Below are positions 28,701-51,143 of a stretch of 64,000 bases of DNA, in pieces. The notes under the pieces are model-generated. The model saw only the letters and a list, made by a program, of their open reading frames with translations. It was not told the origin of the DNA and made no database searches. Each line of letters begins with the position of its first letter. The stretch's first letter is position 1. Source of the stretch: a virus (lineage: Duplodnaviria; Caudoviricetes); IMG/VR virus record IMGVR_UViG_3300029288_000056, positions 192,001 through 256,000 of that record; one strand, written 5' to 3'. A program made the translations under genes and the position numbers.

Positions 28701-31700
28701 CCGGTGCGCCACAGCTACAGTTAAATATCGTAAACAGCTCTCTGCCCTTTCCCTCTAGCCCGGTGATAATCTCACAAGGTATCCAAGGTGTGGTCCTTTT
28801 GTTCCATGCCTCCACCTTAATCATATGGGTGGGGTCCTTACTACATTGGGCAATATAGCTCATCTGCGATCCTCGCTATCTATAGCCATTTACGATCCTC
28901 ATATCTATATCCATCAACTAGGCGCTCCGCATATAGCGACTTCATATAGTGCTCTAAGTGAGAATGCCCGCCCCTGTCTTTTCGCTTAGGTGGATTATTG
29001 GGGTCCCTAGGCTCACTACAGCTTACGCCGTATGCGCCGTAATATTGGCGAGAGGTCCATTCACAACGCTCACCATTTGCCTCACAGCCATCTGCGTTGG
29101 GACACCAACGCCACCTCTCGTCACCAAGAGCGATTATCCTGTACTTGTCTTCGAGGTTTCCACCCAGTCCTGCAAGAGCGAGCCCTAATAGCAGTCCCAC
29201 AAAGAAAATAGCAAAAGTAATCGTGTCGTCGTGTGTAGGGTTGGGTAGTGACGAAAAGGCGTATGAGCCTATAGCACCAAAGATGATGAAGATCCATCCA
29301 ACAACGGCCGTATAACCCCAAAACTGTCGCCAAAAATAATACCATTTGTAAGATTTCATTAGTCTTCCATTTCACCCTTTACTAAGGTCCACACCATCAT
29401 TGATACCATGGCGATACCGACCAACAAGTCTCCCAGCCACCAAAGGCTCGGGTCACCCTTTACCATTGCGACGGCGAGAAAGGCCAACAGGAAGTGTCCG
29501 AAGCTCCAAAGGTTCATCCAGAGTCTAATCATTAAGCCACTCCTCCCAAGTGCTGCAGAACAGTGCGAGGGCAAACATAAAAAAGATTATACCCATCGGA
29601 ATAGCAACCCACTCAGTCAGCCCCGCGTTGAATAGCAGGATGGGTATCGCAATAGACCCGATGAAACAAGCGGCGTAAAACAACATCACAAACATTACAC
29701 GAATGTAACCCCAAAAATCTTCCATTATTCCCCTTCGGTAGCGCCTGAGGGTTTGATTTCTAATAAATCATAAGCACCACAGCCGCGATGTTGTTGTATA
29801 AGTATCCAATCACCTTGTTTAACCCAAGCATGCATATAGTTCGGGGTATAGTTACCTTCCCAAAAGCCGCCGTCAACATCACGGACAGCCCACAGTTTAC
29901 CGTCTATGTGGATACTATCAACATGAACCCATGTCGGTTTAGCGTCACAACATATCAGCGTCATCATCAATAGTAAGGAAACCTTCATCATGTTTTTAAC
30001 TTTCATTATTATCCTCCATCAACAATCTATCATAGGTCTATTCTGAAGTCAAGCGATATTTTAGAGATACGCTATCCAGTTAATTAACGGATAGATAGCG
30101 ACTAATACTAAGATCCCAACTGCAATAATGAGCGCCCAGAATAAAGTCTGTATAGCTCGATCCATCTTCAAGGAACCTTGCATACGCTTCCGCCAAAACT
30201 CCACGCGTTTCCTGTATATCTCCCTTTGAGGAGAGTCGAGCAGTATGCTATACATATGATAGCTGTGAGCTTCTGCCCAGCTCGGGAACTTGAATATAGT
30301 AGCAACGACGCTGAGTGTGACGACTAGCAGTGTTATAATGGGAATCAGTATCATTATTCCTCCTTAAGAACTTTCTCAATAGTCTCGTCCAGTGCCTTAC
30401 TGAGTTCCACCAAGAAGTCAGTACGCACCAGATCAAACGCTTCCGCACCTTCATAATCTTCTTTGTCTGTATAAGTTCTGCGATGTGTTTCGAACAACCG
30501 AGATGTCGTCTGAAGTGCCCTGTTTCTAACACGCATCAATTTTTCACAAAGGGTTATGTAGGTGACCGCGTCTTTGCGCGTTTTAAAGCCACCCTCGTCT
30601 GCACAGGAGCCGGAACATTCGATTATCCATTCATCTTCATCATAGCATCCGGTTTCACTTTTGTATATACTTAAAGTTCCGGCGCATTTTGGGCATCTAA
30701 AAGTTTTCTCCATTACTCTCCTTTTCGGTTATGCCGAGTTTATCGAGAACTTCCATAATCATCTCTATCACCATATTCACAAGACTGGCGTTACCCATTC
30801 CCGGGCCGACGATTGCACAGACTTTCTCTCGCAGATTCTCGATCTGTCCTGCGAATAAGTACTCATCCTTAAAACTCGCCGCCACTCTTTCGGCCATGTT
30901 TGCGCGCTCATCCTGCCTGATTCGCTCATCATGTTCTTTTTGATAATTTTCTTTCCAGATAACGAGTTCATCGGTTAAGCGAGTGATTTCCGCATAACAG
31001 TCCTTCACGTGACCCCACTTATGCGATTCACTGGTGTGACAGTTCCAATCGTTTATATCTATTCGCTCAAACATATTCTTCTCCATCGATGTTTAATTTA
31101 GTCATCACATAAAGCACCCGAATACCCAGTGGTATCCCGATGATACTCACGAAACACACAATGGCCACTAAGAACAGAACAAGATAAGCCATAACTTTGA
31201 GTATGAATATCATTTTTTGCTTCTTATCCTCGCCAGCTCTGATGCATAGAAGTCCTTATAGCTTTGTTCTAATGCATTAAGCTGGCGGCCTGCTGATATT
31301 GCTGCTATCATGAGTGCGATAAACATCGCTAACCCAACTCCAATAATTATCCAAAGAAATGTAGAATCCATTACTCCTCCAAACTATAGTAGGATGCCTT
31401 AACGGCGTTGATTATAGAGGACAAAACCATAATGAGCGCGGCCACAAACATCATGATTATAACCCATACACCCACATGATATCCAAAGTTTTGCACAGGA
31501 TTATCACCCATCATTTTCACACCCAGACACGATAGACCGAATAAGACTGGCGCGAGAATGATCTGATATATCGCCATCAACAAGTGACGAACTACTTTAT
31601 CCATTTTGTTTCTCCAAGTATCGTTTCAACTGAAGTAACGACCTTTCTACACCGTCTATTACTTCGTCCGTGAATGTCGCAAGGTTTGCCCAAAACTCTT

Positions 31701-45632: not shown

Positions 45633-46339
45633 AGCATCCTTTGTTTTGTCACGAAGTATTCCCTCATACAGTTCCCACAATAACGACAGCTCTTCTGAAG
45701 TTTTCCGCCACAAGAGTAAACCAATAGGTTAGCCAGAAATCTGTCTTCGATCAACCTCTGACCCATCTGATTAAGAACCCAGTATTCGTTTAGGGTGCGT
45801 GTTTTCCATTCGTAGTATGACTGAAAATAAGGACGGTCCAATTGATGTGAATACGCCATGTACGTCAGAACCACCGGGACGCCTCTAGTGGTGTAGTACT
45901 CAACCGCCGGCGTTACCACAGTATCAAGGTTCCACACGCTTACCCTCACTCTAACAAACATGAGGTTGTACGGGGCCGGGCTCACCCTATGAAAGGATTT
46001 CTCCGTCATGTCACCCGGGTTTACCGTTAAGACTACGGGCCCACTGAACTCCTCGATCTTTTCGGGTACAGCAGTGTTGAAGAAATAGTTCTCAAAAGTC
46101 CGCGCCACAGATTCAACGAGTTCCCTCTCATTCGAGCTATCGTTCCCATCATTGATCCTAACGATTCTATTTTCCGTCAATTCCAACGGGGGAATGTTGG
46201 GCAGGTTTTCCTTGAGCGGTTCTAGATAACTGCGGCCTGAAGCGTAAAAACAATCGTCGCAGTGATTCGGGCAAGTGCTAGTCTGTGGAATACAACAAAT
46301 TATCCCACTGTTCTTAGTCTTGGGGTTCTCGATGTACAT
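45629..46339 (-). CDS. Short radical-SAM-like protein
   Basis: CPNHCDDCFY (CxxxCxxC), VRINDGNDS, C-terminal CRYCGNC. Confidence 0.65.
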   Translation of the reverse strand: MYIENPKTKNSGIICCIPQTSTCPNHCDDCFYASGRSYLEPLKENLPNIPPLELTENRIVRINDGNDSSNERELVESVARTFENYFFNTAVPEKIEEFSGPVVLTVNPGDMTEKSFHRVSPAPYNLMFVRVRVSVWNLDTVVTPAVEYYTTRGVPVVLTYMAYSHQLDRPYFQSYYEWKTRTLNEYWVLNQMGQRLIEDRFLANLLVYSCGGKLQKSCRYCGNCMREYFVTKQRML

Positions 46340-46941
46340 TATCCCTCGTATTTCATGTATTTAATGATTATCTTCTGTTGTGCTGGATCAACATGATATT
46401 CCTTCTCATAGCACTCGGGACAGATTGGTGTATCTTTAATCACTTCCCACTCTTTCTTGATCAATCTGTGGCACTCTTCACACTCGAAAAACTCTTCGCC
46501 ACAATGTGGACATTGCATGGTTCCTCCTTTAACAAGCGTACAGGTATAGATGCCAGCCCCGTTCTTTGATTTTATCGTTATCCGGGCCAAGAAAAGCTAT
46601 AGCTCTGTTTAATAAATTAATCTGTTCCTCAGTGGGTTGTGTTATTCCAACTAATTTGCACTCTGGAAAATCGTATTGATCGAAACCGACTGCCGTGGAT
46701 ATTATCCCGACAACTGACCCTAAATACTCTCCCGTAGCCCAATCGGTTCCATAATCATAGACCGCGACGCCAAACTCGTCCTTCAGCCGTTTTTCTAATT
46801 CGTTAGAGATCTTTAGATACTCTTTGTAATCATCGCTAGTCTTTTTCTGATCAACCAGCCATCCCAAATTCCAATCTTCTACGCGATATCCATAAGCCAA
46901 TCCACAATTAAACTGAACAGACATGTTATCTCCTTTTTAGG

Positions 46942-46970
46942 ACTATATCATAAGTCGTTAGAAAAGTCAA
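46942..46970 (-). promoter_or_regulatory. Sigma70-type phage promoter (copy 12)
   Basis: TTGACT-17-(TGA)TATAGT, immediately after Y-RNA-like copy 1 and its T tract. Confidence 0.8.
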
Positions 46971-46980
46971 GCAAAAAAAA

Positions 46981-47065
46981 TAGAGAACAGGTTGAGGTGA
47001 GATATTGGGTTTCCCGGATTTTTGGTGGAAAATTTTATCAATGTAATCCCACAAGCATTTCTCTA
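46981..47065 (-). ncRNA. Y-RNA-like stem-loop 1 (minimal), ends in a T8 tract
   Basis: Terminal stem TAGAGAA/TTCTCTA; core AATGCTTGTGGGATTACATT ... ATCTCAC..CCTGT shared with three other copies around the TROVE gene. Confidence 0.75.
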
Positions 47066-47338
47066 ATTTAAATCAAGTAAAGCTGGATTTGTATATCTAA
47101 ACTTCAGTCTACTGACCACGGACTCCACTTCACTAATGGCGCCAGAGTTTTCAGCGTTATAACCCTTACCATAAAGCTCCGCCAAAATCCTCTCCACACA
47201 ATCGATGGCTTTCTTAAGCGGTTTCCAACCCCAGTTCTCGTAAACTCCCGTCATTGCGGAATTTGCTACTCCGCGCGCTATGATCATCCACTCGTCGTAA
47301 GTGAACTCCATAGACCATTTTTCATTGAATGTTCTCAT
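47063..47338 (-). CDS. Hypothetical protein inside the Ro60/Y-RNA array
   Basis: 91 aa; TAG stop overlaps the 5' end of Y-RNA-like copy 1. Confidence 0.6.
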   Translation of the reverse strand: MRTFNEKWSMEFTYDEWMIIARGVANSAMTGVYENWGWKPLKKAIDCVERILAELYGKGYNAENSGAISEVESVVSRLKFRYTNPALLDLN

Positions 47339-47825
47339 TCTTTTTCGCCACCTCGGGATTTTTTGCCGCTAAGTCCACAAATCTTAATAGACTCATGATT
47401 TCATTCTCCATTACCTTACGATCATCTTCGGTTGCTTCTTGTCTCTTTTTAAATAGATTAAATATAACCTGTGCCTGCATCTCTGTACATTTACCAGCCT
47501 TCATACACGTATTTATTTTGTCTATTAAAAGCTGCCCCACTTCGTGTTGATCCGCAAAGTCATATCTCAATCTATCATAGTGAGTGTGAATCTTCGGCTC
47601 AAAGTCTGTGGTGCGGTCAAATTTCATATTTCTGATCGTTTTTTGCTCAAAGCTTTCCTTATTTTCTTCCGCTAGTGTATCTGCGACTTTGCGTACAAAG
47701 CTTCCCAAATCGTCTATCGCACTGATAACTTCTTTTGATATTTCGTCGCCACTTTCGATCAGTCTGTCGACACTATACTTAATCTTATCCTTAAGTTTTG
47801 CAAGTTCTTCAATAAATTCCATCAT
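47322..47825 (-). CDS. Hypothetical helical protein inside the Ro60/Y-RNA array
   Basis: GGAGGTG RBS, ATG at 47825/47822; charged and predicted helical. Confidence 0.7.
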   Translation of the reverse strand: MMEFIEELAKLKDKIKYSVDRLIESGDEISKEVISAIDDLGSFVRKVADTLAEENKESFEQKTIRNMKFDRTTDFEPKIHTHYDRLRYDFADQHEVGQLLIDKINTCMKAGKCTEMQAQVIFNLFKKRQEATEDDRKVMENEIMSLLRFVDLAAKNPEVAKKNENIQ

Positions 47826-47844
47826 ATTCACCTCCGAAATAAAA

Positions 47845-47967
47845 TACCAGAACAGAATCGGCGAGATTTGCACCTCATTTCTGAGGTTGCCGGTTATTAG
47901 TCGGCCGCTTTTGCAGGGTATTCCCCTGCTGCAATTGTAATGTAATCCCTAACCAGCATTTCTGGTA
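47845..47967 (-). ncRNA. Y-RNA-like stem-loop 2 with a three-hairpin junction
   Basis: Terminal stem TACCAGAA/TTCTGGTA; core AATGCT..GGGATTACATT ... ATCTC..CTGT; TTGCA/TGCAA closing hairpins GCAGGG/CCCTGC, GCCG/CGGC and ACCTCA-GAAA-TGAGGT. Confidence 0.78.
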
Positions 47968-47972
47968 AAACT

Positions 47973-48107
47973 TTTCGGGACAGAGTTAGTGAGTCGTATT
48001 TACGCGCTCCACCAGTTGAGCTATCTCGGCATAATGAGCCGAGAGTGGGATTCGAACCCACAACCACGTGCTCCATAGGCAATGTATACCCACAAGCATT
48101 CCCGAAA
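47973..48107 (-). ncRNA. yrlA: YrlA-like Y RNA with a circularly permuted tRNA-like domain
   Basis: Terminal stem TTTCGGGA/TCCCGAAA. Inside: T-arm GTGGG-TTCGAAT-CCCAC, acceptor stem TCTCGGC-TCATTAT-GCCGAGA closed by a loop, then D-arm GCTC-AACTGGTG-GAGC. Adjacent to the TROVE gene. Confidence 0.88.
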
Positions 48108-48113
48108 TATGGA

Positions 48114-48166
48114 ACGGACAATTGGTGACTAATCCGGTTGCGGTAAGATATAGCCACCAATGCCGT
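48114..48166 (-). other. Structured hairpin between the TROVE stop codon and the YrlA-like RNA
   Basis: ACGG-CA-TTGGTGGCTA ... TAGTCACCAA-TTGT-CCGT. Confidence 0.55.
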
Positions 48167-48169
48167 GTA

Positions 48170-49732
48170 TTACAAATCTATACTCTCTATAACCTCAACG
48201 AACTGATCCACATCGTTTCCGTATTTCATGAACATACTTATCACGTTATATACGGAATCGCTGAACCCGCCCACGTTGAGAATTTCTTTACTGTTATGCG
48301 CTTGAGTGGACGTATTTGGCGCCAAGTCTATACAAACTAACTTTGCACCCGGATTGTGTTGCTTAAACTTCTTCCACTCATCCATCGTTGAAGTTCCTCG
48401 GTAGCTGTCCTGACTATCCACCCATGATTCGTTGTCAGATAGATAGATGCAAAGATCGCCCTTCTTGCCGTTTTGATTCAAAAAGGCCAATGCTGTGGAG
48501 CAACTTGTGCCTCCACCGCTACTACCTCCGATTTCTCTTGCGTTTGTAGCAATAGAATCTAGAGGGTTGATCCCACTCATAAGTTGTGCTCTGGTCGCAA
48601 ACTGTATAACTTCTGCAGTTGGATTCTTGCGCAAAATAGAAGCCGCAAACAGACCCGCCACGTTACAACAACTGACTTTAGAAGTAGCACTTCCTCTTTG
48701 GCCGGTCACGGGAGAACTCATAGACCCAGAGACATCAACGAACAGCCAAACCTTTCCCTCAATCTCAGGTATATTCTCCGCCGAATAGTCAAGAGCCTTT
48801 TGTAGCGCTATGGTTATCTCGCGTGGCATTTCGCTTTGCGCGAACATGTAAGCCGTAAACAGTTGATAAGGAAATGTTCTGGACTTTTTCACAAGTTCAG
48901 CATCCATCAACTGACTAACAACGTATTGCACCATTTCTTTGTCTTCAAAGACTTTGTGACGTAGAAGCGTATTGAGATTGATTCTCAATTGGTTCCAAGT
49001 CATAGTCTTTGCGAGCGCCTTCCAATGTGCATCGGTAAGGCTCAGGGACGTTAGCATCTCAAATGGAACTTCTGGAAACGCGACAGACTCCCCGTTAGTA
49101 AGAGCTTTCTTAAACAACTCGTACGCTTTTAGGTCGTCTGGTAGTAAAACGTCGTTAAACTCGCGGCCCAACACGTAGTTGATCGTATTCTCGCGTTCTT
49201 TGTTTACGGGTTTTGGGTGAACCATCTTTATAATATCAGACATTGATGGATCACTTCCTGTGACGAAAGCCACGTAAGAATCGGTCCAACTGTTGATCAA
49301 GCCGGCAAGTTGTTTCTTGAGTGAAGTACCAAAGGATTGGCGACCGAATTTATTCGAACGAATTGCTTGTACGAAGTTTCGTATCATCTTTCCGTTGGTT
49401 ACGACCTTTGGAAACGCCTTTTTAAATTGAGCCAAAGCCTCTGGAGTCTTGCAACCCGCTAGATAAGCCAATAGCGCAACCGGCATGTCCTTCATCAAAC
49501 CACGAGTCGCAGAATAGACCGCGGTCTTGGCGATAAAGGTAGGATCAACTTGAGGTAGATACTTGTAGAGATGGGCGAGTTGGTCTCCCCCACTTGCGTA
49601 GTAGGTGCCGTTAAAGCAGCCGGTTACAGCTAACTGCGCGATGGCGTGCTTTGCACTCATTGAATACGCAATTCCACCTGCGTCATTTACTGCGTCTGCA
49701 GGTTTGACACCGTTAAACACGTTCTTGTTCAT
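48170..49732 (-). CDS. rsr: Ro60/Rsr-like TROVE-domain ribonucleoprotein with a vWA domain
   Basis: NDAGGIAY, TGCFNGTYY, GRQSFG, MVHPKP, LRINLNTLLRH, FPYQLFTAY; vWA MIDAS VDVSGSM; GGGT; LSDNESW; VGGFSD. Confidence 0.93.
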   Translation of the reverse strand: MNKNVFNGVKPADAVNDAGGIAYSMSAKHAIAQLAVTGCFNGTYYASGGDQLAHLYKYLPQVDPTFIAKTAVYSATRGLMKDMPVALLAYLAGCKTPEALAQFKKAFPKVVTNGKMIRNFVQAIRSNKFGRQSFGTSLKKQLAGLINSWTDSYVAFVTGSDPSMSDIIKMVHPKPVNKERENTINYVLGREFNDVLLPDDLKAYELFKKALTNGESVAFPEVPFEMLTSLSLTDAHWKALAKTMTWNQLRINLNTLLRHKVFEDKEMVQYVVSQLMDAELVKKSRTFPYQLFTAYMFAQSEMPREITIALQKALDYSAENIPEIEGKVWLFVDVSGSMSSPVTGQRGSATSKVSCCNVAGLFAASILRKNPTAEVIQFATRAQLMSGINPLDSIATNAREIGGSSGGGTSCSTALAFLNQNGKKGDLCIYLSDNESWVDSQDSYRGTSTMDEWKKFKQHNPGAKLVCIDLAPNTSTQAHNSKEILNVGGFSDSVYNVISMFMKYGNDVDQFVEVIESIDL

Positions 49733-49771
49733 TTTTATTCTCCTTTTTAGGAAACAGTTATGAAAAGATTA

Positions 49772-49846
49772 AGATGGGACAGGGGTTTGCTGAGATACGG
49801 TTTTAATTTACAGTTTAAATGTAATCCCAAGCGAGCATTCCCATCT
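49772..49846 (-). ncRNA. Y-RNA-like stem-loop 4 (minimal), in the leader of rsr
   Basis: Terminal stem AGATGGGA/TCCCATCT; core AATGCTCGCTTGGGATTACATT ... ATCTCAGC..CCTGT. Confidence 0.75.
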
Positions 49847-49889
49847 ACAACACTAACACGGATTATGCAAAATAATCCCCTATTATTTT

Positions 49890-49960
49890 CAGGAGTTAAA
49901 GGATTTGAACCCTTACCGGATGTTTTGGAGACATCCATGCTACCATTACACCAAACTCCT
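49890..49960 (-). tRNA. tRNA-Trp(CCA)
   Basis: AGGAGTT/AACTCCT+G; GATGT-CTCCAAA-ACATC; T-loop TTCAAAT; no CCA tail. Confidence 0.92.
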
Positions 49961-49965
49961 ATGTA

Positions 49966-50874
49966 TTACAGATCTTCTCTATCTCTGAAGCCCAAAAAGA
50001 TAGGCTCACGTGGAAGGTCCTTTGTACCGATTTTCTGATACTTGTATTTAATCATTTTTCCAACGTATCGATCTTGGTTATCCCATATCTCTTGTCGCAA
50101 CTCATGTGTTAATCCCTGCCCGGTTCCAATGTCAAACTGTATTCCCTCAAAGTCGCCTATACCGACGACTAGAAACTTTCCTAGTGTGTTTGCTGGAACC
50201 TTACCTTCCTTAGAGAATGAACGTTTAGTTCTACCAAACGCATCTTTCTCGGCCTCGTTCAGGTTGTGCATCATCTCTTCAAAACCAACAATTCTTCCCT
50301 CTGCATCCTCAAATGGCTTTATCTTCAGGAGAATTCTTTCCCTCAAAGATGAGCGGCCAAACTTATATTCCCCATCTATTTTACGGATCATAGTTCCCTC
50401 GTATCCAGACTCCAGATGTAAGACTATGATTTCATTGAGGGCTTTTTCATTCATTATTAGAGTTTCCTCCACGATTTCCAGTTTAGTATGTCCGTTTTTT
50501 TCTACAAAAGCAGAATACCAATCTGTGATGTCCTTTATTCTACTTATAAATGGCTTTGCCGGCTCGTCTTTCACATAATCAAAGATAGAATAAACAAAAT
50601 CCGGTTCGCCATCCATGGACGAAATCGCGGAAGAGCAATCTTGAAATGTCTTGCCCGCGGTAAGCTCACCGTCTAAACCGTCCGGCAGTTCTAACCCCTC
50701 CAGATAGTTTCTGATGTATGCGTTTCTAATCGGTTTGAAGGATCTACTTAAGGCTTTTCCTTGAACCATCAAGCAACGGTGTCCATCAATCTTTGGGGAT
50801 GCATAAACGGGATACTGTACATCCCTCATGTCGTGGATCGTCTCAGCTAAAAGTGGCTTTGTTATTTTTCCCAT
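49966..50874 (-). CDS. lig: Minimal ATP-dependent DNA ligase
   Basis: PLLA, motif I PKIDGHRC, LDGEL, FD, EGTMIR, YKFGRS, LLKIK, LREPIFLGFR; start ATG 50874. Confidence 0.93.
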   Translation of the reverse strand: MGKITKPLLAETIHDMRDVQYPVYASPKIDGHRCLMVQGKALSRSFKPIRNAYIRNYLEGLELPDGLDGELTAGKTFQDCSSAISSMDGEPDFVYSIFDYVKDEPAKPFISRIKDITDWYSAFVEKNGHTKLEIVEETLIMNEKALNEIIVLHLESGYEGTMIRKIDGEYKFGRSSLRERILLKIKPFEDAEGRIVGFEEMMHNLNEAEKDAFGRTKRSFSKEGKVPANTLGKFLVVGIGDFEGIQFDIGTGQGLTHELRQEIWDNQDRYVGKMIKYKYQKIGTKDLPREPIFLGFRDREDL

Positions 50875-50880
50875 GTTTGA

Positions 50881-50909
50881 ATTATAATACAATTTAAGAG
50901 AAAAGTCAA
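50881..50909 (-). promoter_or_regulatory. Sigma70-type phage promoter (copy 13), leaderless for the DNA ligase
   Basis: TTGACT-17-TATAAT-6 nt-ATG. Confidence 0.85.
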
Positions 50910-50924
50910 GCACTTTCTTACAAT

Positions 50925-50955
50925 AAAAAACCGCCTCTTTTCGCAAGAAGCGGTT
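50925..50955 (-). terminator. Rho-independent terminator
   Basis: AACCGCTTCTT-GCGAA-AAGAGGCGGTT followed by a T tract. Confidence 0.8.
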
Positions 50956-51143
50956 GAACTAACATTGAATACCTTAACCGTTTAACTTGCTGTTTATCCT
51001 TTGGTCTATTCCCTTATCACATTCAGAGGTTATAATCTCTAAATCCTCGCCAAATTCTAGCAATGCCTTTTCTACCTTACTTTTGGTAGTAGGGTCTGAT
51101 TGCCAGTTCTCTGGAACGTATAATTTTATTTTCATAGTTTCTC

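What the first reader, a model, noticed from the sequence alone, without database searches (positions are those of the whole stretch)
47973..48107. Circularly permuted tRNA mimic (T-arm, loop-closed acceptor stem, D-arm) inside Y3
Seen: GUGGG-UUCGAAU-CCCAC comes BEFORE a 7-bp acceptor-like stem UCUCGGC/GCCGAGA capped by UCAUUAU, followed by UA-GCUC-AACUGGUG-GAGC. There is no anticodon loop; that arm continues into the Ro-binding stem. Established: this is the YrlA architecture. Inference: it could act as a decoy for host tRNA-targeting nucleases or recruit tRNA-processing enzymes. tRNA scanners would miss or mis-call it.
Basis: partly seen in the sequence, partly recalled or inferred. Interest (0 to 1): 0.75.

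Follow-up and report, generated by a model that had tools for sequence, protein, structure and literature searches.

The report
Phage YrlA-type Y RNA, tRNA mimic
This 135-base minus-strand stretch of a 297-kb phage is a real small RNA gene of the known YrlA class, a tRNA body written in rotated order and clamped by the stem that binds the Ro60 protein encoded next to it, so it is a new example of a known thing and not a new kind.

Summary
Observation confirmed. On the minus strand at 47973-48107 lie, in this order, a T arm, a 7-bp acceptor-like stem closed by a 7-nt loop, UA, and a D arm. All of it sits inside an 8-bp terminal helix.

- **Family match.** Rfam YrlA (RF02553) matches full length at 52.8 bits, E 3e-10, below the gathering score of 69. 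The published mycobacteriophage ET08 YrlA scores only 37.4 bits, and only partially.
- **Context.** The RNA starts 63 nt after the stop codon of a 520-aa Ro60/Rsr gene.
- **Structure.** Six YrlA-type sequences plus one minimal Y RNA gave 96% paired cells, and 30 of 34 pairs carry compensatory changes.
- **Rotation test.** Rejoined in tRNA order with a borrowed anticodon arm, the halves are called a tRNA by ARAGORN. None of 200 shuffled controls is, and the native order gives no call.
- **Setting.** The host is a jumbo phage with 36 tRNAs, seven Y RNAs sharing one handle, RtcB and a CCA-adding-type enzyme.
- **Origin hint.** A 25-nt run is identical to the phage's tRNA-Met(CAU).

The architecture, the phrase "circularly permuted tRNA", its presence in phages and the nuclease-inhibitor idea are all already in print. 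This scan has also noted similar phage Ro60/Y-RNA loci on other DNA. Function is inferred. Interest is low to moderate.

The parts
47973..48107 (-).
   Evidence: Rfam RF02553 hit at 47971-48106, 52.8 bits, model positions 1-114. My own model R1 and the motif scan give the same limits.
48100..48107 (-). 5' strand of the terminal helix (UUUCGGGA), followed by the conserved AUGCU at 48095-48099. This is the presumed Rsr-binding handle.
   Evidence: Pairs with 47973-47980. All 8 pairs of this helix are standard here, and 7 of 8 covary across relatives. AAUGCU matches the Rfam consensus.
47973..47980 (-). 3' strand of the terminal helix (UCCCGAAA), preceded by the conserved CUG
48088..48093 (-). 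Second helix, 5' strand (GUGGGU). It pairs with 47989-47994 (ACUCAC).
   Evidence: Rfam alignment. 6 of 6 pairs covary. In the thermodynamic MFE this strand instead pairs with the 18-nt insert.
48070..48087 (-). 18-nt 5' side of the internal loop (contains the conserved UACAU). Rfam treats most of it as an insertion.
   Evidence: A 15-nt insertion in the Rfam alignment. A comparable insertion occurs in the paralogue, in L009 and in the Salmonella-type YrlA.
48066..48069 (-). Anticodon-stem remnant, 3' side in tRNA numbering (A41 C42 G43 + U44). It pairs with 48002-48005.
   Evidence: Read from the sequence. 4 of 4 pairs covary.
48062..48065 (-). Variable-loop equivalent (G45 G46 U47 U48)
   Evidence: Read from the sequence. 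U48 can pair with A15.
48045..48061 (-). T arm: GUGGG-UUCGAAU-CCCAC
   Evidence: Part of a 25-nt run identical to phage tRNA-Met(CAU).
48024..48044 (-). Acceptor-like 7-bp stem (UCUCGGC/GCCGAGA) closed by the loop UCAUUAU (48031-48037)
   Evidence: 7 of 7 pairs covary.
48006..48023 (-). U8-A9 equivalents plus D arm: GCUC-AACUGGUG-GAGC
   Evidence: The D stem is identical to the YrlA consensus.
48170..49732 (-). rsr: Ro60 orthologue, 520 aa, the presumed protein partner
   Evidence: Pfam vWA_Ro60 1e-16 and TROVE 3e-5. PHROG 850 1.4e-36. Matches D. radiodurans Rsr 2NVO at 3.9e-19 over residues 15-502, and phage phiLo Ro60 9KOP at 1e-15.
48114..48166 (-). Long hairpin between rsr and the Y RNA (context)
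   Evidence: -21.3 kcal/mol, z -3.7.
47845..47967 (-). Neighbouring Y RNA ('Y2') with the same handle but a non-tRNA branched module (context)
   Evidence: R1 25.4 bits, motif scan, fold.
46981..47065 (-). Minimal Y RNA ('Y1') with the same handle (context)
   Evidence: R1 34.6 bits, motif scan.
49772..49846 (-). Minimal Y RNA ('Y4') between tRNA-Trp and rsr (context)
   Evidence: R1 24.6 bits, motif scan, fold.

Best explanation
The stretch is the gene of a YrlA-class Y RNA of a jumbo phage.

**Shown here**
- The RNA's two ends pair into the conserved Y-RNA handle: an 8-bp helix, AUGCU, a second 6-bp helix and UACAU.
- Between the strands of the handle sits a complete tRNA body in rotated order: variable loop, T arm, a 7-bp acceptor stem closed by a loop, U8-A9, D arm, and a 3-bp anticodon-stem remnant.
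- The nucleotides that build the tRNA elbow are all in place: U8, A14, A15 with U48, G18 G19, U54 U55 C56 and A58.
- It lies directly after the phage's Ro60/Rsr gene. No promoter-like or terminator-like site lies between them, so it is probably cut out of the rsr transcript.

**Inferred from the family (Chen 2013/2014, Wang 2018, the phiLo study 2025)**
- The handle binds the Rsr ring.
- The L-shaped, anticodon-less tRNA body offers a tRNA elbow to a tRNA-binding partner. Host PNPase is the only partner shown for any Y RNA.
- The RNA would therefore tether Rsr to that partner, or gate access to Rsr, during infection.
- In this phage it most likely belongs to a tRNA maintenance and repair set: 36 tRNAs, RtcB and a CCA-adding-type enzyme.

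**Also inferred**
- Because the acceptor stem has 7 bp, with U at -1 and G at +1, RNase P may nick the loop as it does in M. smegmatis YrlA.
For: - **Rfam.** Full-length YrlA match, 52.8 bits, E 3e-10, with AAUGCU, UAC, the T loop, the D arm and CUGUC aligned to the consensus.
- **Protein partner.** The rsr gene ends 63 nt upstream.
- **Fold.** The MFE fold recovers the terminal helix and the T, acceptor and D arms, z -3.75.
- **Paralogue.** A second copy in the same genome (G000 275358-275490) has a different sequence in every helix but the same structure.
- **Covariation.** Across seven sequences, 96.2% of cells pair, 30 of 34 pairs change on both sides, and slid controls give 36-46%.
- **Rotation test.** The halves rejoined in tRNA order are called a tRNA by ARAGORN; 0 of 200 shuffles are.
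- **Relatives.** Related phages carry the same kind of RNA beside or near rsr: L009 has two tandem copies, and Myxococcus phage Mx1 has one.
- **Transcription signals.** No promoter-like or terminator-like site lies between rsr and the RNA.
- **Repair genes.** RtcB and a PolyA_pol/CCA-type nucleotidyltransferase are in the genome, along with 36 tRNAs.
- **Literature.**
  - YrlA in more than 250 bacteria and phages, with its enzymes and RNase P/CCA processing (PMC4201824).
  - The L-shape and the 'circularly permuted tRNAs' wording (10.1101/312249).
  - Phage Ro60 plus Yrl RNAs bind host PNPase (PMC12135203).
  - Jumbo phages with TROVE and a tRNA-like partner (PMC7824862).
Against: - The Rfam score is below the curated gathering score (52.8 against 69).
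- The published Rsr-binding motif GNCGAAN0-1G is only partly kept. Here it reads CGGGAAUG, and the changed positions lie in the helix.
- The nearest-neighbour energy model prefers a fold in which the 18-nt insert pairs with AUGCU and the second helix's 5' strand: -50.1 against -43.9 kcal/mol for the canonical fold. The handle may therefore not be formed all the time.
- Position 21 is G, not the usual A.
- The three closest Rsr proteins (53-55% identity, on other large phage-like contigs) have no detectable YrlA within 4 kb.
- There is no expression, binding or modification data for this RNA, and the host is unknown.
Confidence: 0.85

Rival explanations
1. Uncleavable decoy or competitive inhibitor. 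The anticodon-less tRNA body soaks up host tRNA-targeting defence nucleases, or other tRNA-attacking toxins, and so protects the phage's and host's tRNAs. This is compatible with the RNA being a YrlA; it is a rival only about what the module is for.
For: - Hughes et al. 2020 report that Salmonella YrlA is not cut by the DNA-damage-induced anticodon nuclease and suggest competitive inhibition.
- This phage removes the anticodon loop in two different ways. Two rotated copies open it into the handle. A native-order copy at G000 140116-140244, and its homologue L009:5071-5194, replace it with a 5-nt loop or a GAAA loop.
- The genome invests heavily in tRNA supply and repair.
Against:
- Most known anti-phage tRNA nucleases read the anticodon loop itself, which is absent (my own knowledge of PrrC, RloC, colicins E5 and D, and VapC).
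- It does not explain why the module is tied to an Rsr-binding handle next to rsr.
Confidence: 0.15
2. Two-piece, CCA-tailed form. RNase P cuts the acceptor loop before G+1, the 3' trailer is trimmed, and CCA is added by the phage or host enzyme. This gives a nicked Y RNA with a true tRNA-like acceptor end, as shown for M. smegmatis YrlA.
For: - The acceptor stem has 7 bp, which Chen et al. 2014 name as the determinant that made only M. smegmatis YrlA an RNase P substrate.
- The loop is A/U-rich, with U before G+1.
- The phage encodes a CCA-adding-type enzyme.
- The relative L009:5362-5497 has ACCA directly after the 3' acceptor strand.
Against: - The loop is short (7 nt), and no cleavage data exist.
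- The paralogue has only 6 bp and a 5-nt loop, so cleavage cannot be general.
- A single ACCA among six sequences could be chance.
Confidence: 0.3
3. A true circularly permuted tRNA gene whose transcript is circularised and reopened to give a working tRNA.
For: The order of the halves is the same as in permuted tRNA genes. The rejoined halves pass ARAGORN once an anticodon arm is supplied.
Against: - There is no anticodon loop or full anticodon stem anywhere in the element.
- The ends form a conserved Y-RNA handle instead.
- Such maturation is known only from a few eukaryotic algae (my own knowledge).
Confidence: 0.01
4. A decaying relic of a tandem tRNA-Met duplication, or a short protein-coding ORF (47897-48160, 87 aa), with no RNA function.
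For: - A 25-nt run is identical to tRNA-Met(CAU).
- blastn of the module hits junctions between adjacent tRNA genes in other phages.
- An 87-aa TTG-initiated ORF overlaps the element.
Against: - All helices are intact and covary.
- The handle is shared with six other RNAs in the genome.
- The ORF has no Pfam match.
- The paralogue differs by indels of 1, 4 and 1 nt, which would break any shared reading frame.
Confidence: 0.02

Closest known systems
YrlA (Rfam RF02553) of Salmonella Typhimurium and Mycobacterium smegmatis, partner of Rsr (Chen et al. 2014, PMC4201824; Wang et al. 2018, 10.1101/312249, PDB 6CU1)
   Same: - Encoded beside rsr.
- Same handle, with AAUGCU and UAC on the 5' strand and CUGUC on the 3' strand.
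- Same order of T arm, loop-closed acceptor stem and D arm.
- Same elbow nucleotides.
- The D stem GCUC/GAGC is identical to the consensus.
- The 7-bp acceptor stem matches the M. smegmatis form.
   Different: - Scores 52.8 bits, below the gathering score of 69.
- Longer 5' internal loop (18 nt) and a 7-nt acceptor loop.
- The T stem differs by one pair from the near-invariant consensus.
- CGAA of the Rsr motif reads GGAA.
- Lies downstream of rsr in a phage, within an array of other Y RNAs, and not in an rsr-yrlBA-rtcBA operon under RtcR.
Mycobacteriophage YrlA RNAs (for example ET08, Bxz1-type phages; Chen et al. 2014, Fig. 1D)
   Same: A phage-encoded Rsr with an adjacent YrlA. The match to the Rfam model is below threshold in both cases (ET08: 37.4 bits, partial).
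   Different: - The Rsr proteins are only about 24% identical.
- The host group is different.
- This phage has seven Y RNAs, three of them with a tRNA-like body.
Deinococcus radiodurans Yrn1
   Same: A Y RNA bound by Rsr that carries tRNA-like features and tethers Rsr to PNPase.
   Different: - Yrn1 has the D-like and T arms in native order around an anticodon-like arm.
- The element studied here has the rotated order.
- The Yrn1-like order is seen in another RNA of this phage (G000 140116-140244), not in this one.
Thermus phage phiLo Ro60 with Yrl1 and Yrl2 (PMC12135203)
   Same: A phage Ro60 with phage-encoded Y-like RNAs next to the gene. It gives experimental support that such RNPs bind host PNPase.
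   Different: - No tRNA-like domain is described for Yrl1 or Yrl2 (0 occurrences of the term).
- They lie upstream of the gene.
- The proteins are only distantly related (E 1e-15).
Circularly permuted tRNA genes of Cyanidioschyzon merolae, and two-piece permuted tmRNA genes (my own knowledge, not tested against a paper here)
   Same: The 3' half (T arm, acceptor 3' strand) precedes the 5' half (acceptor 5' strand, D arm).
   Different: - Those genes encode a full anticodon arm or a tag reading frame, and they mature into working tRNA or tmRNA.
- This element has neither.
- ARAGORN, which also searches for tmRNA genes, reports nothing here.

Membership tests
YrlA (RF02553) | Encoded adjacent to a Ro60/Rsr gene | tested here: met
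   The rsr ORF at 48170-49732(-) ends 63 nt before the RNA's 5' end.
YrlA (RF02553) | Score at or above Rfam's gathering threshold (69 bits) | tested here: not met
   52.8 bits, full length, E 3e-10. This is an operational cut-off: the published ET08 phage YrlA reaches only 37.4 bits, while a Salmonella-type copy reaches 70.9.
YrlA (RF02553) | Helix formed by the 5' and 3' ends that carries the Rsr-binding motif GNCGAAN0-1G on the 5' strand | tested here: inconclusive
   The helix and AAUG(CU) are present. The motif reads CGGGAAUG, so two helix positions differ from the published pattern (motif from PMC4201824).
YrlA (RF02553) | tRNA-like domain in the order T arm, loop-closed acceptor stem, D arm, with no anticodon loop | tested here: met
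   and the rotation test.
YrlA (RF02553) | Nucleotides for tRNA tertiary interactions (U8, A14, R15:Y48, G18 G19, U54 U55 C56, A58) | tested here: met
   All are present when canonical tRNA numbering is laid on the sequence. Position 21 is G.
YrlA (RF02553) | Near-invariant D-stem and T-stem sequences | tested here: met
   The D stem GCUC/GAGC is identical to the consensus. The T stem GUGGG/CCCAC differs from GCGGG/CCCGC by one compensated pair. The paralogue is less conserved.
YrlA (RF02553) | Helices supported by compensatory change | tested here: met
   30 of 34 pairs; 96.2% paired against 36-46% when slid. Caveat: the alignment was fitted to the model and has only seven rows.
YrlA (RF02553) | Bound by Rsr in vivo; pseudouridine 55 and dihydrouridine present | not testable with these tools
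   Needs expression, pull-down and modification mapping.
Permuted tRNA gene | Complete anticodon stem-loop that gives a decoding tRNA after maturation | tested here: not met
   Only a 3-bp remnant, which opens into the handle. ARAGORN calls a tRNA only after a foreign anticodon arm is supplied.
tmRNA (including two-piece forms) | tRNA-like domain plus a tag reading frame and pseudoknots | tested here: not met
   ARAGORN finds no tmRNA. The Rfam tmRNA model matches only the 17-nt T arm at 14.3 bits.

The most novel reading that the evidence does not exclude
In this phage lineage the tRNA body of a Y RNA may be an exchangeable cassette taken from the phage's own tRNA genes.

- Y3 shares a 25-nt identical run with tRNA-Met(CAU).
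- The same handle also holds a second rotated body, and a native-order body whose anticodon loop is replaced by a short loop.

The phage would thus make a panel of anticodon-less mimics of particular tRNAs, tethered to Rsr. Each would act as an uncleavable bait for a host factor that attacks or handles that tRNA. Y3 could also be nicked by RNase P and given CCA.
Probability: 0.1. Interest if true: 0.7.

Novelty: new member of a known kind. Interest (0 to 1): 0.33.

Why it matters
It adds a clear, unannotated YrlA to an uncultured 297-kb phage. It also shows that Rfam's threshold misses phage members of this family.

The wider locus is of more use than the single RNA:
- One genome offers seven Y RNAs with one handle, including two rotated tRNA bodies and one native-order body that differ in their stems.
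- They sit next to Rsr, RtcB, a CCA-adding-type enzyme and 36 tRNAs.
- This natural set of variants could help find the still unknown partner of the YrlA elbow.
- It could also test the published idea that YrlA blocks tRNA nucleases.

The 25-nt identity with a phage tRNA is direct sequence support for the proposal that YrlA RNAs derive from tRNAs.

Tried and rejected
- **megablast of 46000-51000 against the phage collection:** no match.
- **The search for related loci with Rsr in viral contigs:** only one relative, L009.
- **Pattern scan of viral contigs.** The handle pattern AATGCT-N4-GGTWTACAT gave 119 stretches. In the first 100 loci, model R1 found a single weak minimal Y RNA (L030, 27.4 bits), so these were nearly all chance hits. 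The remaining 19 loci were not searched.
- **Closest Rsr proteins.** Neither R1 nor Rfam found a YrlA within 4 kb of the three closest Rsr proteins, L137-L139. A motif scan found only minimal Y-like candidates in the tRNA arrays of L137 and L138.
- **Other phages.** Rfam found no YrlA within 2.5 kb of rsr in Streptomyces phage Enygma, Microbacterium phage Big4 or phage csAssE-Sib at E up to 0.01.
- **Three-sequence MAFFT alignment:** it misaligned L009, so it was dropped in favour of a two-sequence seed.
- **First genome-wide regular expression:** It was corrected (failed version).
- **Origin of the other two bodies:** I looked for a tRNA origin of the paralogue and of the native-order copy. 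Their longest shared runs are 10 and 12 nt, which is unremarkable.
- **Overlapping ORFs on both strands:** no Pfam family.

Full report
**What is there**

The window is bases 192001-256000 of a 297,328-bp virus record, estimated 94% complete. Almost every long ORF and all seven tRNA genes of the window lie on the minus strand, and so does the element.

Read 5' to 3' on that strand, it runs as follows:
- **48107-48100:** UUUCGGGA, the 5' strand of the terminal helix.
- **48099-48095:** AUGCU.
- **48093-48088:** GUGGGU, the 5' strand of the second helix.
- **48087-48070:** an 18-nt stretch containing UACAU.
- **48069-48066:** ACGU.
- **48065-48062:** GGUU.
- **48061-48045:** the T arm, GUGGG-UUCGAAU-CCCAC.
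- **48044-48024:** the 7-bp stem UCUCGGC/GCCGAGA, closed by UCAUUAU.
- **48023-48022:** UA.
- **48021-48006:** the D arm, GCUC-AACUGGUG-GAGC.
- **48005-48002:** GCGU.
- **48001-47995:** seven unpaired bases.
- **47994-47989:** ACUCAC.
- **47988-47981:** eight bases ending in CUG.
- **47980-47973:** UCCCGAAA, the 3' strand of the terminal helix.

**Is it more than chance?**

- Rfam's YrlA model (RF02553) aligns over its whole length (1-114) at 47971-48106 with 52.8 bits. E is 3e-10 for a 4-kb search and 5.4e-12 for the genome. That is below the gathering score of 69, which is why the default scan showed only tRNAs.
- The loss comes mainly from a 15-nt insertion and the longer acceptor loop.
- As a calibration, the mycobacteriophage ET08 RNA published as a YrlA gets only 37.4 bits and a partial match. 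A Salmonella-type copy gets 70.9.
- The single-sequence fold is 3.75 sd more stable than shuffles and recovers the terminal helix and all three arms.

**Structure test**

I built a model (R1) from this RNA and its paralogue. With it I collected six YrlA-type sequences and one minimal Y RNA: this phage, L009, Myxococcus phage Mx1 and a Salmonella-type fragment.

- On that alignment 96.2% of cells pair, against 36-46% when partners are slid.
- 30 of 34 pairs show changes on both sides, and every helix is supported.
- The alignment is small and fitted to the model. However, the paralogue alone already changes nearly every stem while keeping the design. Its T stem is GGGAG/CUCCC, its acceptor stem CCGCCC/GGGCGG and its D stem GUUC/GAAC.

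**Is it a rotated tRNA?**

Canonical tRNA numbering fits without strain:
- seven acceptor pairs, then U8 and A9;
- a four-pair D stem and an 8-nt D loop with A14, A15, G18 and G19;
- G26, and three anticodon-stem pairs (27-29 with 41-43);
- a five-base variable loop, U44 G45 G46 U47 U48;
- a T stem with G53-C61, and a T loop U54 U55 C56 G57 A58.

As a direct test I joined the 3' part (acceptor 5' strand to G26) and the 5' part (U44 to acceptor 3' strand) in tRNA order, with the anticodon arm of a phage tRNA between them. ARAGORN then calls a tRNA. It calls none of 200 constructs with shuffled halves, and nothing in the native order.

ARAGORN on the window and the Rfam tRNA model also report nothing here.

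**Surroundings**

- The ORF ending 63 nt upstream (48170-49732) is a Ro60/Rsr orthologue. It matches vWA_Ro60 at 1e-16 and TROVE at 3e-5, PHROG 850 at 1.4e-36, D. radiodurans Rsr 2NVO at 3.9e-19 over nearly full length, and phage phiLo Ro60.
- No promoter-like or terminator-like site lies between rsr and the RNA.
- A scan of the genome for the handle finds seven RNAs:
  - Four lie around rsr in the window, at 49772-49846, 47973-48107, 47845-47967 and 46981-47065.
  - A second rotated-tRNA copy lies at G000 275358-275490, 12 nt before tRNA-Tyr.
  - A minimal copy lies at 29559-29645.
  - A copy at 140116-140244 has a tRNA-like body in native order with a 5-nt loop in place of the anticodon loop, just before tRNA-His.
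- The native-order type has a clear homologue in L009, with a GAAA loop. L009 carries six handle-bearing RNAs after its rsr.
- The genome also has 36 tRNA genes, an RtcB ligase frame interrupted by an insert, and a PolyA_pol/CCA-type nucleotidyltransferase.

**Origin**

- The T arm and 3' acceptor strand share a 25-nt identical run with the phage's tRNA-Met(CAU) at G000 261197-261271. The longest run among all 630 pairs of the phage's tRNAs is 17 nt.
- The D loops are also alike, and both have G at position 21. The D stems differ, however, and Y3 keeps the YrlA consensus there.
- This points to descent from, or partial homogenisation with, that tRNA gene.
- blastn of the module against cultured phages hits only junctions between two adjacent tRNA genes. 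That illustrates how a tandem tRNA pair already contains the order T arm, acceptor, acceptor, D arm.

**How it most likely works**

Identity as a YrlA is well supported. The mechanism rests on the family.

- In Deinococcus and Salmonella, Y RNA tethers Rsr to PNPase and gates the ring (PMC4201824).
- The Salmonella YrlA domain folds as an L-shaped tRNA, and its conserved D and T stems are proposed to bind an unknown elbow-reading partner (10.1101/312249).
- A Thermus phage Ro60 with its Y-like RNAs binds host PNPase and slows it (PMC12135203).
- Jumbo-phage TROVE proteins have been linked to RNA repair with a tRNA-like partner (PMC7824862).

I therefore read this RNA as the adaptor that joins phage Rsr to a tRNA-binding host or phage factor, within the phage's tRNA maintenance set.

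The 7-bp acceptor stem makes RNase P nicking and CCA addition plausible, as in M. smegmatis. I put that at about 0.3.

The decoy idea is a published suggestion (PMC7790460). It fits the fact that both topologies in this phage lack an anticodon loop, but nothing here tests it.

**Doubts**

- The Rsr motif is only partly kept.
- The energy model favours an alternative 5' hairpin that hides AUGCU by about 6 kcal/mol.
- The closest Rsr homologues show no YrlA nearby.
- There are no expression data.

**Verdict**

This is a new member of a known kind. This scan has already noted similar phage Ro60/Y-RNA loci on other DNA, and other notes on this genome describe the array and the tRNA-Met identity.

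Noticed in passing
G000 140116-140244 (-), outside the window (= L007:1464-1592); homologue L009:5071-5194 (+): A Y RNA with the same handle but a native-order tRNA-like body: a short acceptor stem opens into the handle, and the anticodon loop is shortened to 5 nt (a GAAA tetraloop in L009). It lies just upstream of tRNA-His. The Rfam tRNA model scores 41-46 bits. One phage therefore carries both topologies of tRNA mimic.
   Followed up: partly
G000 275358-275490 (-), outside the window (= L002:1501-1633): A second rotated-tRNA YrlA (Rfam 43.6 bits), 12 nt upstream of tRNA-Tyr and far from rsr. Its T loop reads UGCGAAU and its D loop AACAGAUA, so G19 and U55 are not kept.
   Followed up: partly
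window 48070-48099 (-): In Y3 only, the 18-nt insert is complementary to AUGCU plus the 5' strand of the second helix. The MFE fold (-50.1 kcal/mol) hides the handle, against -43.9 for the canonical fold. This could be a switch or an accident. It is not seen in the paralogue.
   Followed up: partly
window 48040-48064 (-) and G000 261197-261271: A 25-nt run is identical between Y3 and phage tRNA-Met(CAU), longer than any run shared by two tRNAs of the genome (maximum 17 nt). That tRNA has an A1/A72 mismatch at the top of its acceptor stem.
   Followed up: yes
G000 291176-293347 (-) and 267427-267792 (-), outside the window: RtcB matches in two pieces within one 750-aa open frame, which suggests an inserted element such as an intein. 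A 458-aa frame carries a PolyA_pol/CCA-adding-type domain.
   Followed up: no
L009:5362-5497 (+): In this relative's YrlA the acceptor loop begins ACCA directly after the 3' acceptor strand, like an encoded discriminator plus CCA. L009:5071-5194 likewise has G-CCA after its acceptor strand.
   Followed up: no
window 48114-48166 (-): A long, nearly perfect hairpin starts 3 nt after the rsr stop codon and ends 6 nt before Y3 (-21.3 kcal/mol, z -3.7). It lacks the AUGCU/UACAU handle, and its role is unknown.
   Followed up: partly
L011 (OR845705.1, 'Escherichia phage ECO95 1-6-1', 1748 bp, UNVERIFIED_ORG): This short 'phage' record is an rsr 3' end followed by canonical YrlB (105.5 bits) and YrlA (70.9 bits), the Salmonella-type operon. 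A third, weaker YrlA-like hit follows at 1077-1190.
   Followed up: no
G000 265480-265571 (-), outside the window: ARAGORN reports a 'tRNA-???' with a two-base anticodon (aa). A weak RF02553 hit (14 bits) overlaps it.
   Followed up: no
L137:5660-5821, L139:5633-5809 and similar: In the large phage-like contigs with the closest Rsr proteins (53-55% identity), small 53-58-aa ORFs are called right after rsr, and no YrlA is detected within 4 kb. Minimal handle-bearing candidates sit in the nearby tRNA arrays (L137:7910-7972, L138:9018-9077).
   Followed up: partly
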